From Okamejei kenojei (lineage: Eukaryota), in assembly GCA_035221665.1 (NCBI GenBank), contig CM069165.1:22382001-22446000 (forward strand): DNA of 64,000 nucleotides, read 5' to 3'. The position numbers were made by a program, and so were the translations under genes. Under the pieces are notes generated by a model, which was not told where the DNA came from, did no database searches, and saw nothing but the letters and a program-made list of their open reading frames with translations. Positions 1,986 to 32,404 of this stretch are shown one piece after another. Positions within the stretch are counted from its first letter, which is position 1. The number at the start of each line of letters is the position of its first letter.

Positions 1986-2458
1986 TAATCCTCATGAGAG
2001 AAGAAAGCAATGGAAATAAGTTGACCAACAGTATTGGGGATGTCTTATCAGGAATTCTAGTTAGACATCAATATCCTTTACACCCCATGTATGCATTCAT
2101 GGACATCTAATGTAAATTGCGCACAAATGTGGAGAGGGACCTACAATACACTCAAGCTTCATTTAGACTGATTTATGATGTGTTCAGAAAAGATGACAAA
2201 GTGAATGTTAATGTTTGTGTGGAATAGGTTAGACTTGTCTGTAAGTGATATAGACATATTGCTTAGAATTTGCGTGTGGTGCATGGGGGAAATGTGAACA
2301 TGAAAGTTGCTCCTCTGGGATGCTGTGGTGACTTAATATTGGGGTTGGAACACTGGAAAATATTTGGGATTTCTTGTTAAGTAATTGTTGTATGAAAATA
2401 ATATGACCTGTTGCTGCATACATCAGGGGTATGAATGTTCCTTGCCGATCTGTTCCAG

Positions 2459-2575
2459 GGGGCTGTGCCATTGAAAGAACTCAACACTCGGCCACTAGAG
2501 GTGTTTATGTGCAGCGTGCTGAAACGTCAGGGATATGGAGAAGGATTCCGCTGGCTTTCGCAATACATCGACTGA
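2459..2575 (+). CDS. SAR1A: SAR1 GTPase (COPII), last coding exon; upstream exons lie outside the window
   Basis: Acceptor ttccAG ends at 2458. Manual translation [38 protein letters not shown] matches the SAR1 C-terminus. The WLSQYID ending and adjacency to TYSND1 favour SAR1A over SAR1B. Not in the ORF track because it is too short. Confidence 0.93.
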
Positions 2576-10119: not shown

Positions 10120-10260
10120 ACACGCCTTTCCCGTGTGAAAGCAGAAAACTGGAATAACTCGCGAAAATAACGAAGGCTGCGTTTCACACGACCCGCAGAT
10201 GGTGACATGTGATGTGATGTGAGGTGCATCGCTTCCGGGTTAGTGATGAAGTTTTGCAGT
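10120..10260 (+). promoter_or_regulatory. Probable TATA-less TYSND1 promoter
   Basis: CpG-containing unique sequence just upstream of exon 1; ETS-type CTTCCGG at about 10232 and TCGCGA motif at about 10159. Confidence 0.45.
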
Positions 10261-10360
10261 GGTCCTCGGCCAGCTGTGGGATCGCCCTGTGCTCCAGGAG
10301 GTCCCAGAGCACAGCTGTGAGATCTCCACTGCAGACCCCCCACTCCCCCAGCTCCGTGCA

Positions 10361-11502
10361 ATGATCTCCCCGGAGAGCTGCAGTTGCATCGTCTCCGCTT
10401 CCCTGGCCAAGGAGGCGTCGGCTGCCGAGTGCCAGCGGGACGGAGCCTGGGGCTGCAGCGGCTTGCTCCTCCACCCCAAGCGCCGCTTGGTCCTTTGCCA
10501 CGGCCAGACCTTCTTGCCCTTCCTCCGGCGGCCGCAGCGAACCCTCGGCCGCCGGCCCTTCCTGCTCCCTGGGGCGTTCCACAGCGACCTCCACATCCAG
10601 GTCCAGTTCCCTGGGACCAGCTCCTCAACCCAGCCCGAACTCGCCATGTCCTTGGCTTCCAACGACACAGGGGCACTGAATTCAGAATCAGAACCCCCTA
10701 ATCTAGATTGCAGACCCAGACTGTCCTCATTGACTCCTGGCCAAGCCAAGGCCAAGAGTTCCAGCCCGGCTGAGATGCTCATGGTCTTCTCATGCCAAGA
10801 ATTTGGAGATATCTTCAGAACCTTGTTCAGCAAATCAGACAAGTGGTACTTCTACAGTGAGGACAAGGACCAGGAGGTCCATGGGGAGCCTCTGGATCTG
10901 GTCTGGTTCGCCCTGTTGTGGTGCCCTGGCTGGCTGGACGGAGGCAGCGTGTGTGGGGAGGAAGCCTTGAGGTATGTGAGGAGCGAGTGTTTGAGCAAGG
11001 GCCAGCCCCTCTTCAGTTGTGCGTCGCCCTTCGCCTCGTTCTGCTCCGAGATCTTCATGAACACCCTCAGTCAGGGGATTGTGAGCAACCTGGCAGGAGA
11101 GAGGAACGCCCTGATTTTAACTGATGCCCGCTGCTTGCCGGGCACTGAAGGGGGTGGCGTGTACATCCGATCCCAACACCTGTACTACCTGGCGGGATTG
11201 ATTGTGGCGCCTCTTTGCTGGAAGGCCAACGACTGGGTCGGCCTGACCTTGGTGTGTTCCATCACCTGCATCTTGGAGACCATGAGGAGGATTCTGAACG
11301 GATTTGAGATATTTGGTTCCCCGACCCTGACCGTCCCAGGGAGTCACGGGTTAACCCGGCTGCTCGGCACGGCAGCCCTGCTGGAGTCCAACAGAGTTTG
11401 GGGATCAGGAGTGATTGTCAGCCCTAGACTCATCATCACATGTAGACACGTCTTAGACCGGGCGCCATCTGTCACAGTGAAAATACAGTCGGACTCAAAC
11501 AG
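10361..11502 (+). CDS. TYSND1: Peroxisomal leader peptide-processing protease TYSND1, exon 1
   Basis: ATG at 10361 (MISPESCSCIVSAS...); motifs FMNTLSQGIVSN, LILTDARCLPGTEGGGV, PLCWKANDWVGLTLVCS, WGSGV...TCRHV (catalytic His); donor AG|gtaaga, phase 2. Confidence 0.95.
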
Positions 11503-11639
11503 GTAAGAGTCATCCAAGATAGCAGAGGTGCTCCGAGTCTGAGGTCATTGTACAAAATGTCGAAATTCTCAGCAGGTCAGTCTTCACCCGTGAAGAAGAA
11601 AATGTATCTGTCATATGAACCGGAAAAATTAAATTCTTA

Positions 11640-19020: not shown

Positions 19021-19083
19021 TGTGGAGGCTCAGTTAATTTATCCGATAATACTTTAAGTGAAACTGCGTCCTGTTGTCCACAG

Positions 19084-19269
19084 GAGAGGACGTCTACGTC
19101 ATAGGCTACGGGGTGTTTGGCCGTGCGTGTGGGCCCTCGGTGACGGCCGGGATCTTGTCCGCTGTGATCACTCTGGAGGAGCGGCCTGTCATGCTCCAGA
19201 CCACCTGTGCTGTTCATGCTGGGGCCAGTGGTGGACCTGTCTTCAGCACCAGCAGTGGAGAGTTGCTGG
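19084..19269 (+). CDS. TYSND1: TYSND1 exon 3
   Basis: cacAG acceptor; GEDVYVIGYGVFGRACGPSVTAGILS...MLQTTCAVHAGASGGP (catalytic Ser); donor G|gtaggt. Confidence 0.95.
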
Positions 19270-19354
19270 GTAGGTTGCCTGTCTTTGCAGCGTATAGAGG
19301 ACATCTTCCCATAAGACCTGTGGGTAGAGTGGGGAGCTGGACATTGGAGATCAG

Positions 19355-19596
19355 GTTGGTACTCGGGGCTCCCGTGGACATTTTTCAACACGTTGAAAAA
19401 TCTTCACGAGTCTTCCCGTGCTTACCTGCCGTTAGCGAGTCTTCCCGAGTACCTGCCGTTAGCGTTACGAGCCGCTAAGAGACGTCCCCGAGCTCCGACG
19501 TACCCGCTACGTTCATTCTCCGTGCTTACCACGAGTTTGAGTTATTTTAAACTCAGGAGAGCTCTTGGAATGAACTCATACCGTGGGACAGGGCTT
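19355..19596. mobile_element. Partial Harbinger-like MITE, same family as 36270-36585
   Basis: Reverse-complement match to the 36270 element; ends GTGGGACAGGGCTT. Confidence 0.65.
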
Positions 19597-25999: not shown

Positions 26000-26440
26000 G
26001 ATTTGAGTTTTGTTCGTTTATTTAAGTTGTACAAACTATAGAATAGCACCAAAGTATCAAAAGAATGTGTTGAATGCAAATCAATACCAGTCCAAAGGAA
26101 AAATTAGGCTGCCCTGCAGACCTATTGGCCCCACCGAGGGGTATTTACACGATTACACAAGTTAGCACCACGTTTGTAAACAAAGGTTTTTTTTTTAAAA
26201 ACTGCAGGAGATATCAAAATGGGCCCCATGCAGTACAGGTCCAGCTCCAGCCTTGGTTAACGTTGCATGCGTCTGGGAATAGGAAAGGCAACCATGTGCA
26301 GAGTCCCTCACCCTGGTGTGCAGGTTTAAAATCGCTCTGTGAATTTATAGTCCCCATTGTCAGATGTTACATTAAGCCCCGGGTGGAAACCTCTCCCCCT
26401 CCCTCCCTCCCTCCCTCCAACAGTTGCCGTGTCCATCGCC
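26000..26440 (-). other. DDIT4: Probable DDIT4 3'UTR; AATAAA(-) at 26017-26022, alternative at 25616-25621
   Basis: TTTATT on the plus strand; repeat-free sequence after the stop codon. Confidence 0.55.
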
Positions 26441-26922
26441 TCAACATTCCTCGACGAACACCACGTTAGAGCTGTAGAGTTTTCTCTTGATGATCCGGAA
26501 CCTGGGGCTGAGCCGGAGGGCTTGGCTGTACCCCGGGGTGAAGGAAGGACCCGAAGTCAAGAGGTCCTGGACCTTGGACCAGAAGCCCCCTTCCAGCCTC
26601 AACACCAGGGCGAGCTCGAAGGTGGGCGCCAAGCTGCCGTCCACCACGATGCGGTCCACGTCCTTGCACACGTGGCCGTCCTCCACGCTGAGGTGCAGCA
26701 CCGCTCCCCGCAGACCACAGGGCTCGCTGGCCGCCAGCCGCAGCAGCTCCTCCGCCACCTGGGCACTCAGCTCCTCGGGGATCAGCAGCTTGAAGCAGTG
26801 CAGCGCCACGCGTTTGGCCTCACTCAGACTCTGCTCGATCAGCTGCATCACATCGGCGCACAGCAGCTCCTCGAACGGGTCGTCAGTGACCGAGTCCCGG
26901 TCAGACTCCAAACTCCCGTAAT
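26441..26922 (-). CDS. DDIT4: DDIT4/REDD1 (RTP801) last coding exon, drawn with the most distal acceptor
   Basis: RTP801_C motifs ELLRLAASEPCGLRGA, PTFELALVLRL, FRIIKRKLYSS...EEC*. The EEC ending favours DDIT4 over DDIT4L. Acceptor ttgcAG|AT, phase 1. Confidence 0.92.
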
Positions 26923-27449
26923 CTGCAACATTCAGAGTGGCAACAGAAAGGATTAAACTCCCGTAATCTGCAACATTCAGAGTGGCAACAGAAAGGATTA
27001 AACTCCCGTAATCTGCAACATTCAGAGTGGCAACAGACAGGATTAAACTCCCGTAATCTGCAACATTCAGAGTGGCAACAGAAAGGATTAAACTCCCGTA
27101 ATCTGCAACATTCAGAGTGGCAACAGAAAGGATTAAACTCCCGTAATCTGCAACATTCAGAGTGGCAACAGAAAGGATTAAACTCCCGTAATCTGCAACA
27201 TTCAGAGTGGCAACAGAAAGGATTAAACTCCCGTAATCTGCAACATTCAGAGTGGCAACAGAAAGGATTAAACTCCCGTAATCTGCAACATTCAGAGTGG
27301 CAACAGAAAGGATTAAACTCCCGTAATCTGCAACATTCAGAGTGGCAACAGAAAGGATTAAACTCCCGTAATCTGCAACATTCAGAGTGGCAACAGACAG
27401 GATTAAACTCCCGTAATCTGCAACATTCAGAGTGGCAACAGACAGGATT
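26910..27449. repeat. Minisatellite, 12 x 45 bp, spanning the DDIT4 intron/exon junction
   Basis: Unit AAACTCCCGTAATCTGCAACATTCAGAGTGGCAACAGAAAGGATT recurs every 45 bp from 26910 to 27405; an A>C variant occurs in units 3, 11 and 12. Confidence 0.97.
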
Positions 27450-27477
27450 TAAAAAAAAACCTGTCTTTACAAAATGT

Positions 27478-27758
27478 TAAATGGTTCATTTAAGACTGAG
27501 GTGAGAAAAAACTTTTTTACCCAGAGAGTTGTGAATTTGTGGAATTCCCTGCCACAGAGGGCAGTGGAGGCCAAGTCACTGGATGGATTTAAGAGAGAGT
27601 TAGATAGAGCTCTAGGGGCTAGTGGAGTCAAGGGATATGGGAAGAAGGCAGGCACGGGTTATTGATTGGGGACGATCAGCCATGATTGCAATGAATGGCG
27701 GTGCTGGCTCGAAGGGCCGAATGGCCTCCTCCTGCACCCATTTTCTATGTTTCTATGT
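27478..27758 (+). mobile_element. CR1 LINE 3' end in the DDIT4 intron
   Basis: FKTEVRKNFFTQRVVNLWNSLPQRAVEAKSLDGFKRELD; tail (TTCTATGT)n. Confidence 0.85.
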
Positions 27759-29194
27759 CAGCTCGACAGATTACAAAACCTACACCAAACCCAAACCAAT
27801 TAGGAGCAGACGAGGGCATTCGATCCAATTTGAGATTCCAGCTACCAAGACAGATGTAAGTAAGTTTTTTTAATTCATATACCACTTTTAAATCAAATGT
27901 TTAAGCCAAAGTGCTTTACAGAGGAAAAAAAATAGATTACCATACATCCATATAAAATAAAAAGGAGAAAAAAGACCCAATACACCATAGGATTAAACAT
28001 GAACATCCCCCCACACAGCAGAATCAACACATTTAAGCATTTAATGTTTAAGAAGGAACTGCAGATGCTGGAAAATCGAAGGTAGACAAAAGTGCTGGAG
28101 AAACTCAGCGGGTGAGGCAGCATCTATGGAGCGAAGGAAATAGGCAACGTTTCAGGCCGAACCCCTTCTTCAGACTGCTTCAGATGTGTACTTCTCCCCC
28201 TCCCCCCCGCACAATTAAAGCATGGAATAATCATCACCCTACCAGATGCAACTACATTTAAGGTAGCTCTTTCTTCCCCAAAACCCTTTCTGGCTTAAGT
28301 CCTCCCTCCACCACCTCCAGTTTACATTCCAATTTGGAATATTTTGGAGGACCAAGGAGAGACCAGATTAAAACTAGCAGGGAGGACAGGCAACAAGGCC
28401 AACTGCAGATGCGGGGATTTTTCCAGCAAAACACACACAAAAGTGCCGGAGGAACTCGGGAGGGTCAGGCAGCATCCAGAGGGAATGTTTTAAGGAAATA
28501 GGCAACGTTTCGGGACGAAACCGCAGCGTTACTCCGCCACTTTGCGTTTTAAAACTGCCACGGAATTGGGCAGCTAACAAATAAACATTGCTACAGGCAA
28601 CGGGATCATTCAAACTGGGGTTAAACACATTTAAAGCACGCAGGACACACGGAGCGGAACCGTCCATTCGGCCCATCGAGCCTATTAAGGTGTCCCCCCA
28701 AGTCTCCAGTTTCCCCTCTATTGACTAAACTACCCCTCTTCACGCCCCAGTGTTAAATTAACACATGCGAGGAAAAGCAATGTTACATTTAAGAGTGTAG
28801 AAAGGAACCACTGGAAGATGTTAAAGAAGGAACTGCAGATGCTGGAGAATGGAGGGCGACACAAACCTGAGTTTCTCCAGCCTCTTGTGTAACTACTGGA
28901 AGATGCTGGGTGGGTTTTAAAAGATAAGACAGAGACACTAAACGCTGGTGTAACTCAGCGGGCCAGGCAGCATCTCTGGAGAAAAGCAATAGGCGACGTT
29001 TTTCACACTGGGAGTGGGGGAGAGGGAAGCGAGAGATTGGCGTTGTGTTGGGGCCGCACACACAAGACAGTTACACCGGCTGAAGAAACGTTTGCCCAGT
29101 TCCTTCGCCCCGCAGATGCTGCTGCACTAGAGTAGACTTTAGTCTACCTTCGCTTCTGAAACAATGAGACGGGCGCTGCTGCGATGCCACTCAC

Positions 29195-29417
29195 CGCTGT
29201 CGGTGTCCAGGTCGGGCTCGGCTTTGCGCTCGGGCTGGCACCGCGGCTGCTGGTGTTGCTGCTGCTGGTGTTGCTGGTGGTGGTGGTGGTTTTGGTGGTG
29301 TTGAGCCGGGGAGCCGCCGGTCAGGTCGGCGAATCTCTGCAGCAGCTTCCCCCAGGATGCGGGGAGCAGAGGCAGAGGCGGCGGCGCCGGGGGGGCTGCG
29401 GCTCGTCCGTGACACAT
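29195..29417 (-). CDS. DDIT4: DDIT4 first coding exon
   Basis: ATG at 29417 (aagATGt); MCHGRAAAPP...SWGKLLQRFADL (resembles the fish REDD1 N-terminal motif as I recall it)...DLDTDS; donor G|gtgagt, phase 1, joins exon 2 in frame (705 nt, 234 aa). Confidence 0.85.
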
Positions 29418-29439: not shown

Positions 29440-29630
29440 CGGAGTCACGTCAGGACACGACTGTTGCCAGGCGGAGTGGCGAGCGTCCGCGACCCGCGAC
29501 GTGCCTCTTATACTGGGCGCAGCATTGGCTACACCGCCCACAGCTCCGTATAAGGAGCGGCGCTCCATCCAGCAAAGTAACAAGCTCATCCCGGCCAATC
29601 CCTGCTCCCTGCACGTTCCCCACGTCCCAA
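29440..29630 (-). promoter_or_regulatory. DDIT4: DDIT4 core/proximal promoter
   Basis: Minus-strand TATAAG 29507-29512, CCAAT 29524-29528, GC box 29534-29539, CArG-like 29546-29555, two ACGTG cores at 29612-29616 and 29621-29625; CpG-rich. Confidence 0.75.

Positions 29631-32348: not shown

Positions 32349-32404
<56 letters not shown>
32343..32404. repeat. Poly-G homopolymer (about 55-60 nt)
   Basis: Visible run; its length may be a sequencing artefact. Confidence 0.8.

What the first reader, a model, noticed from the sequence alone, without database searches (positions are those of the whole stretch)
26910..27449. DDIT4 splice acceptor amplified into a 12-rung, in-frame, stop-free minisatellite
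Seen: on the coding (-) strand each 45-bp unit reads TTAAT (branch-point-like YTNAY), CCTTTCTGTTGCCACTCTGAATGTTG, CAG|ATTACGGGAGT. That is a complete 3' splice-site module plus the first exon bases. AG acceptors sit at 26923-26924 and every 45 bp up to 27418-27419. Because 45 is a multiple of 3 and the frame set by the phase-1 donor is open (DYGSLILSVATLNVA per unit), any acceptor gives an in-frame protein. Lengths range from 234 aa (distal acceptor) to 399 aa (proximal acceptor, +11 x 15 aa). Established: REDD1 is a short-lived, stress-induced inhibitor of mTORC1. Inference: copy number and acceptor choice could set the length of a hydrophobic linker between the N-terminus and the RTP801_C domain. 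Alternatively only one acceptor is used and the array is neutral.
Basis: partly seen in the sequence, partly recalled or inferred. Interest (0 to 1): 0.8.

Follow-up and report, generated by a model that had tools for sequence, protein, structure and literature searches.

The report
Repeated splice acceptor in skate DDIT4
In a skate, the boundary where the intron of a stress-response gene ends has been copied twelve times in a row without breaking the reading frame; similar repeats in lancelets are simply spliced out, and this one probably mostly is too, but it is a natural test of how cells choose among identical splice sites.

Summary
A 12 x 45-bp array (26910-27449, 99% identity) repeats the last 32 intron bases and first 13 exon bases of a skate DDIT4/REDD1 gene. 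All 12 AG acceptors are in frame and stop-free (234-399 aa). Corrections: unit 1 lacks TTAAT (the junction creates it in units 2-12), and 3 of 12 units carry a synonymous variant.

The structure is of a known kind: amphioxus 'mirages', minisatellites spanning exon-intron boundaries, reported not to disturb splicing. The in-frame, stop-free property arises in about 11% of hypothetical duplications here, so it is suggestive only.

Most likely (0.55) the array is near-neutral and acceptor 12 dominates, with harmless in-frame leakage. Only acceptor 12 is followed by exon-like sequence, and it is predicted the most accessible. 15 of 16 closest homologues keep the junction 15-17 residues from the core, and no search found the repeat peptide. 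Substantial use of upstream acceptors (0.27) is not excluded: all 12 share the top-ranked acceptor hexamer. Adaptive linker tuning has no support (0.05); assembly artefact 0.10. No RNA or orthologous DNA was available, so acceptor use is untested.

The parts
26910..27449 (-). 12 x 45-bp minisatellite; each unit = last 32 intron bases + first 13 exon-2 bases; variant order G,G,T,T,T,T,T,T,T,G,T,T
26923..26924 (-). acceptor 12 (distal); the only one followed by the unique exon; gives 234 aa and the conserved DSD-YGSLES junction
26968..27374 (-). acceptors 2-11 (AG every 45 bp), each with TTAAT branch-point-like motif (A at -31) and TTGCAG; followed by intron-like sequence
27418..27419 (-). acceptor 1 (proximal); native upstream intron; only a TNA core at -32/-33; gives 399 aa
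27449..27451 (-). first in-frame stop (TAA) upstream of acceptor 1; lies exactly at the array's 5' edge
27440..27466 (.). 11-bp inverted repeat (91% complementary; -11.0 kcal/mol as RNA) straddling the array's 5' edge
29195..29417 (-). DDIT4 coding exon 1 (74 codons + 1 base), with a His/Gln-rich tract
29189..29194 (-). splice donor GTGAGT, phase 1
27418..29194 (-). intron to the proximal acceptor (1777 nt; 2272 nt to the distal); holds repeats found elsewhere in the window
26441..26909 (-). unique coding part of exon 2, holding RTP801_C and ending ...EEC-stop
26017..26022 (-). first AATAAA after the stop (418 nt downstream)
29507..29539 (-). GC-box, CCAAT and TATA-like motifs just upstream of exon 1, suggesting a two-exon gene (motif labels recalled)
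   Evidence: read directly

Best explanation
It is a 'mirage'-type minisatellite: a tandem duplication of the DDIT4 intron/exon-2 boundary, amplified to 12 units by slippage or unequal exchange. Shown: the anatomy, the 12 identical acceptors and the open frame. Inferred: the first duplication joined exon TTT to the intron's T-run/AAT next to a hairpin. Inferred: the spliceosome mostly uses acceptor 12, because only it has exon-like sequence downstream and it lacks a following unit to pair with, so units 1-11 mostly leave with the intron and normal 234-aa REDD1 is made. Inferred: minor use of other acceptors (11 and 1 most likely) gives in-frame products longer by multiples of 15 aa. The open frame is a tolerance filter that let the array persist, not a function.
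For: Precedent: BflGb6 repeats of intron 3' end plus exon 5' part (6 and 3 units), and Adh3/TnC arrays, are reported not to disturb splicing (PMC3087553; PMC3902484). Context: bases +14..+60 score 0.54 after acceptor 12 (exon tile median 0.51) against -0.30, -0.48 and -0.37 after acceptors 1, 6 and 11 (intron median -0.44); GC in the next 50 nt is 58% against 40-42%. The last 6 intron bases are predicted most unpaired at acceptor 12 in 5 of 5 window settings (0.30-0.48 against 0.23-0.36; single-copy model 0.40-0.46). 15 of 16 closest homologues keep the junction 15-17 residues before DP[FY]EE. 0 of 66 homologues carry a repeat 6-mer. In-frame and stop-free arises in 631 of 5940 hypothetical duplications.
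Against: No RNA from this species was seen. All 12 acceptors share TTGCAG, the top-ranked acceptor hexamer (bioRxiv 10.1101/2024.03.21.586179), and 11 have a YTNAY at -31, inside the usual 19-37 range (PMC10078293). Duplicated 3' sites often favour the upstream copy in classic tests (recalled, Lang and Spritz 1983). The frame is open, the only variant is synonymous (36 of 135 possible changes are), and the array edge falls exactly on the first in-frame stop: all expected if the repeat is translated. The array's folding is not exceptional (z = -0.13). The 4-mer score is largely a GC proxy trained on this window alone.
Confidence: 0.55

Rival explanations
1. Upstream acceptors are used substantially (a ladder, or mainly acceptor 1 or 2), so much of this animal's REDD1 carries up to 11 extra 15-aa hydrophobic repeats before the folded core. 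This is tolerated but not adaptive.
For: Identical strong acceptors, 11 against 1. Open frame (about 11% by chance), synonymous variant (27% by chance), and array edge at the first in-frame stop. A unit made by TTT slippage on the present flank would be 46 bp and out of frame, whereas all units are 45 bp (sequence; inference). The insert lies about 15 residues before the crystallised core, and the core still folds like 3LQ9 in the model.
Against: No homologue has an insert here. No protein with the repeat was found, although this species may be absent from those sets. The amphioxus precedent points the other way. Sequence after acceptors 1-11 is intron-like. The frame criterion is partly an ascertainment effect, since it is why the locus was flagged.
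Confidence: 0.27
2. The array, or its copy number, is an assembly artefact.
For: Single assembly, near-perfect units, and no reads or second haplotype available. The window holds 607 N in three runs far from the gene; whether these are gaps or masking I cannot tell, so the assembly type is unknown.
Against: Three units share the same base change at the same column (5.5e-5 if they were independent errors). The order G,G,T7,G,T,T needs at least 6 units even if the central run is collapsed (inference). There are no indels and no N in the locus, and both flanks are clean. Other hard low-complexity tracts in the window are resolved.
Confidence: 0.1
3. One reading: copy number and acceptor choice act as a selected rheostat on REDD1 stability or activity.
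For: In-frame design. REDD1 is a short-lived, ubiquitin-controlled mTOR inhibitor (PMC4183088), so changes near the N-terminus could matter.
Against: Units are 99% identical, hence recent. There is no conservation in relatives and no evidence of expression. The model's strand-per-repeat structure is a known AlphaFold2 bias for perfect repeats (PMC11795689), and it matched no solved structure at E <= 0.001 apart from REDD1 itself.
Confidence: 0.05

Closest known systems
Amphioxus 'mirage' minisatellites (Adh3, BflGb6, BflGb9, TnC; PMC3087553, PMC3902484)
   Same: [quoted passage not shown] BflGb6 has the same build: intron 3' end plus exon 5' part.
   Different: The host is a jawed vertebrate. 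Units are uniform 45 bp at 99% identity (BflGb6: 150-160 bp, 81-100%, some with the AG lost). All 12 acceptors are intact and every one is in frame and stop-free. Polymorphism and splicing outcome are untested here.
Variable internal tandem repeats at exon-intron boundaries in human paralogues (PMC2812944)
   Same: Minisatellite-sized units, mostly frame-preserving in coding sequence, kept in or spliced out of the mRNA.
   Different: Those lie in recent segmental duplicates and create new introns through cryptic sites. This is a conserved ortholog in which the native acceptor itself is multiplied.
Human donor-spanning VNTRs in IFI6 (6-16) and CBS (recalled; not read; search returned nothing)
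   Same: Vertebrate minisatellites offering several copies of one splice site.
   Different: They repeat donors, not acceptors with their own branch point and pyrimidine tract.
Intron gain by duplication of an AG|GT site (PMC3265369)
   Same: Tandem duplication that can be removed by splicing and leave the protein unchanged.
   Different: The unit reads AG|AT and has no consensus donor, so no new intron or cassette exon is predicted.
DDIT4/REDD1 (RTP801 family)
   Same: RTP801_C domain, REDD1 fold, conserved exon junction.
   Different: Longer His/Gln tract in exon 1 and the acceptor array.

Membership tests
mirage-type minisatellite | tandem repeat spanning an exon-intron boundary | tested here: met
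   32 intron + 13 exon bases per unit; junction position fixed by homologues
mirage-type minisatellite | minisatellite-sized unit (10-160 bp reported) | tested here: met
   45 bp; range from PMC3087553
mirage-type minisatellite | units carry AG/GT splice signals | tested here: met
   12 of 12 units keep TTGCAG
mirage-type minisatellite | copy-number instability between haplotypes or cells | not testable with these tools
   one sequence only; no reads or second haplotype
mirage-type minisatellite | regular splicing is undisturbed | not testable with these tools
   no RNA; protein searches negative but of limited reach
mirage-type minisatellite | homogenised interior with divergent boundary units | tested here: inconclusive
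   one variable site only, in units 1, 2 and 10
DDIT4/REDD1 | RTP801_C domain | tested here: met
   PF07809, E 1.5e-38
DDIT4/REDD1 | closer to DDIT4 than to DDIT4L | tested here: met
   top named hits are batoid DDIT4 at 90-94%; teleost DDIT4L-named hits at 38-43%; no tree built
DDIT4/REDD1 | REDD1 fold | tested here: met
   3LQ9 by sequence and by structure, probability 1.00
DDIT4/REDD1 | synteny with human 10q22 genes | tested here: inconclusive
   Arf-family and Trypsin_2 exons nearby; the names SAR1 and TYSND1 and their human location are recalled
AG|GT proto-splice intron gain | unit holds AG|GT, giving both donor and acceptor | tested here: not met
   AG|AT; the three GT sites in the unit are far from donor consensus
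NAGNAG / short tandem acceptors | AGs a few bases apart sharing one branch point (definition recalled) | tested here: not met
   45-nt spacing, each with its own branch-point-like motif

The most novel reading that the evidence does not exclude
A vertebrate gene in which a variable minisatellite made of its own complete 3' splice site yields a ladder of translated in-frame isoforms (REDD1 + n x 15 aa, n = 0-11), so that repeat number and acceptor competition set how much normal REDD1 is made under stress. That would be a mirage that is expressed rather than silently spliced out.
Probability: 0.2. Interest if true: 0.75.

Novelty: new variant of a known kind. Interest (0 to 1): 0.43.

Why it matters
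Twelve sequence-identical acceptors in what looks like a single-intron gene differ only in position and in upstream or downstream context. Any RNA from a carrier therefore reads out how the spliceosome chooses among equal 3' splice sites (proximity, exon context or structure), a question mostly studied in artificial minigenes. It also places mirage-type arrays, which the papers I read describe from amphioxus, in a jawed vertebrate. If upstream acceptors are used, it is a snapshot of coding-repeat birth from intron sequence in a conserved mTORC1 regulator. If only acceptor 12 is used, it is a harmless curiosity and a trap for gene annotation.

Tried and rejected
Repeat peptide in protein sets. 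(178-567 aa, 1411 candidates): 66 hits, none with a repeat 6-mer. (30-177 aa, 8000 best candidates): 2 hits at 53% and 47% identity, low-complexity look-alikes. (exon-1 fragments, 40-130 aa): 0 of 35 candidates scored; 134 hits, none above 59% identity. These negatives are weak. The species may be unsampled, a single unit would score near the threshold, and a 234-aa product could be hidden inside the P0003/P0004 clusters (94-95% identical over the shorter sequence). Cluster membership stayed unchecked.

Orthologous DNA: no eukaryotic genome collection was available, so array presence in relatives and the ancestral allele are unknown.

Long named homologues P0027 and P0044 have N-terminal extensions, not junction repeats. 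One long unnamed, distant hit (P0052, 478 aa) was left unexamined.

The Pfam NLRX1_C match in the repeat is below its cut-off and rejected. The AlphaFold2 strand-per-repeat model is rejected as evidence. Cassette or microexon use is rejected: no donor in the unit. A stable RNA structure for the whole array is not supported (z = -0.13). A transmembrane role is unlikely (best 19-residue hydropathy 1.5; the usual cut-off is recalled as about 1.6-1.8).

Literature: Canestro 2002 (original mirage paper) and Mukamel 2023 are not held. Searches for experimental duplicated-acceptor studies returned nothing, and searches listed nothing on point.

Full report
1. Observation. Tandem Repeats Finder reports 26910-27449, period 45, 12.0 copies, 99% matches, no indels, the highest-scoring of 25 rows in the window. 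A 31-base core occurs 12 times and nowhere else, against 0 in 100 shuffles. On the minus strand each unit is the last 32 bases of an intron (ending TTGCAG) plus the first 13 bases of the next exon. AGs lie at 27419/27418 and every 45 bp to 26924/26923. Exon 1 runs from ATG 29417 to 29195 (223 nt, phase 1, G|GTGAGT). The array and exon 2 translate without a stop, and the spliced forms are 234 and 399 aa. Two corrections: unit 1 has TTTAAAT rather than TTAAT, the full YTNAY of units 2-12 being created by the junction; and units 1, 2 and 10 carry a T/G variant that is synonymous in the coding frame. Two of the three minus-strand frames of the unit are open.

2. The gene. Exon 2 holds RTP801_C (E 1.5e-38) and matches human REDD1 structure 3LQ9 by sequence and fold. 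The closest named relatives are batoid DDIT4 proteins (Rhinoraja longicauda 94%, Pristis pectinata 93%); two unnamed proteins, P0003 and P0004, are 97% identical over exon 2. I infer a skate; the species was not identified. P0003 and P0004 sit on contigs of 1207 and 1194 bases, about the size of a spliced two-exon transcript (here roughly 290 + 482 + 440 nt, taking the promoter-like motifs at 29507-29539 and the AATAAA at 26022; inference). Of the 16 closest hits (P0003-P0018; 4 unnamed and taken as cartilaginous fish by similarity), 15 have the junction motif 15-17 residues before DP[FY]EE. The 16th is an alternative Callorhinchus model with a different junction. None of the 66 hits carries a 6-mer of the repeat. 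So the junction used by acceptor 12 is ancestral and the array is young. Whether relatives carry the array in their DNA could not be checked.

3. Is it real DNA? Three units share one base change at one column (5.5e-5 if independent errors), and the order G,G,T7,G,T,T needs at least six units even if the central run were collapsed (inference). The locus has no N and clean flanks. The window has 607 N in three runs far from the gene, which may be gaps or masking, so assembly type is unknown. I put artefact at 0.10.

4. Origin (inferred). The junction joins exon TTT to intron AATCC, next to a T9 run and an 11-bp inverted repeat that straddles the array's 5' edge (-11.0 kcal/mol). That fits slippage at a hairpin followed by unequal exchange, but 21 such inverted pairs were listed in 3.4 kb, so this is a hint only. 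The present flank has one more A than the junction, so TTT slippage on it would give a 46-bp, out-of-frame unit. Either the flank changed later, or a frame-restoring loss came before amplification. That extra A also makes the first in-frame stop, exactly at the array edge.

5. Is the open frame more than chance? Among hypothetical duplications spanning this acceptor, 631 of 5940 (10.6%) are in frame and stop-free; three narrower size boxes give 10.6-13.7%. 36 of 135 single-base changes in the unit are synonymous. Both observations lean towards translation. But an unused array is in frame one time in ten at no cost, a used one must also be tolerated at up to 165 extra hydrophobic residues (GRAVY 1.13), and the frame is why the locus was flagged. 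The evidence is suggestive, not decisive.

6. Which acceptor? For upstream use: all 12 carry TTGCAG, the highest-strength acceptor hexamer in bioRxiv 10.1101/2024.03.21.586179 (passages; supplements not seen). 11 have a YTNAY with A at -31 and no intervening AG, within the typical 19-37 nt (PMC10078293, passages). AG scanning runs from the branch point (PMC10946897, passages), so each unit is a self-sufficient acceptor. A proximal preference in duplicated-acceptor tests is recalled (Lang and Spritz 1983; not read). For distal use: only acceptor 12 is followed by exon-like sequence. A window-trained 4-mer score, with that stretch held out, gives 0.54 against -0.30, -0.48 and -0.37 for acceptors 1, 6 and 11 (4 of 12 scored), and GC is 58% against 40-42%; the score is largely a GC proxy. 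Acceptors 1-11 can pair with the next unit's pyrimidine tract (-10.6 kcal/mol), and acceptor 12 is predicted most open in 5 of 5 settings, close to a single-copy model. The gap is modest and the array's overall folding is ordinary (z = -0.13). Acceptor 1 has the weakest branch-point match, and that region is predicted half as open as in other units. That exon sequence can override proximity is recalled (Reed and Maniatis 1986; not read). Four protein searches found no repeat peptide, with the limits given under Tried and rejected.

7. If translated. The insert would lie about 15 residues before the crystallised core (residues 89-226 per PMC4183088, passages). In an AlphaFold2 model of repeats plus exon 2, built on 47 sequences (the query and 46 named hits out of 66), the core folds at pLDDT above 90 over most of its length and each repeat forms one strand at 62-77. 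AlphaFold2 is known to over-predict beta-solenoids for perfect repeats (PMC11795689, abstract), and the only matches at E <= 0.001 were REDD1 (2 of 476). So activity may survive, but the insert's structure is unknown and aggregation is as plausible as a linker role.

8. What is known. Tandem repeats spanning exon-intron boundaries are described in amphioxus as 'mirages'. BflGb6 repeats the intron 3' end plus exon 5' part (6 and 3 units of 150-160 bp), and RT-PCR suggested regular splicing (PMC3087553: passages, section 16 and supplement 4). Adh and TnC mirages 'do not generate aberrant mRNAs' (PMC3902484, passages). The original Adh paper was seen only as a citation. Human paralogues have boundary repeats that are kept or spliced out (PMC2812944, parts 1-3 of 6). 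AG|GT duplications can create introns (PMC3265369, abstract and opening), which this unit cannot. Donor-spanning VNTRs in IFI6 and CBS are recalled only. Searches listed no report of this locus or of an all-in-frame acceptor array in a vertebrate. In one search, none of the 20 listed of 87 papers mentioned DDIT4. The library lacks most subscription and older papers, so absence is not proven.

9. Verdict. A real, well-formed acceptor-spanning minisatellite that works like a mirage and meets the three structural features I could test; polymorphism and splicing outcome are untested. Most likely near-neutral with distal-dominant splicing (0.55). Rivals: substantial upstream use, tolerated (0.27); artefact (0.10); adaptive rheostat (0.05). 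It is a new variant of a known kind. Interest 0.43, chiefly as a ready-made natural test of choice among identical 3' splice sites; 0.75 if a translated ladder is shown.

Noticed in passing
window 29246-29303 (-): His/Gln-rich trinucleotide tract in DDIT4 exon 1, longer than in any aligned relative; it makes the protein 234 aa against 209-228 in the 15 cartilaginous-fish proteins aligned. A second young repeat expansion in the same gene.
   Followed up: partly
window 27486-27761: A repeat present up to 9 times elsewhere in the window (SINE-like; label recalled) ends about 35 bp upstream of the array. It supplies a pyrimidine-rich AG at 27497/27496 in the exon frame, whose use would hit a stop after nine codons.
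   Followed up: partly
window 27462/27461 and the GGGAG in each unit: Further AGs that are out of frame with exon 2; their use would frameshift in the last exon.
   Followed up: no
window 29445-29452 (-): TGACGTGA, a CRE/HRE-like motif (label recalled), between the TATA-like box and the ATG of this stress-induced gene.
   Followed up: no
window 10250-11503 and 19062-19475 (+); 2435-2572 (+): Trypsin_2 exons (TYSND1-like) and an Arf-family C-terminal exon (SAR1-like); gene names and human 10q22 neighbourhood recalled.
   Followed up: partly
window 30000-64000: No Pfam match among the GC3-rich, non-repeat ORFs tested upstream of DDIT4 (48 of 70 selected ORFs in the whole window were scanned); short exons would be missed.
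   Followed up: no
window 32349-32404: Run of 56 G; further G/C runs of 16-22 elsewhere. Real or a sequencing artefact, unknown.
   Followed up: no
window, far from the DDIT4 locus: Three runs of N (607 bases in all) in simple-repeat sequence; gaps or masking cannot be told apart.
   Followed up: no
P0018: A UniRef Callorhinchus DDIT4 model differs from the NCBI model (P0017) exactly at this exon junction, probably a mis-called splice site.
   Followed up: no
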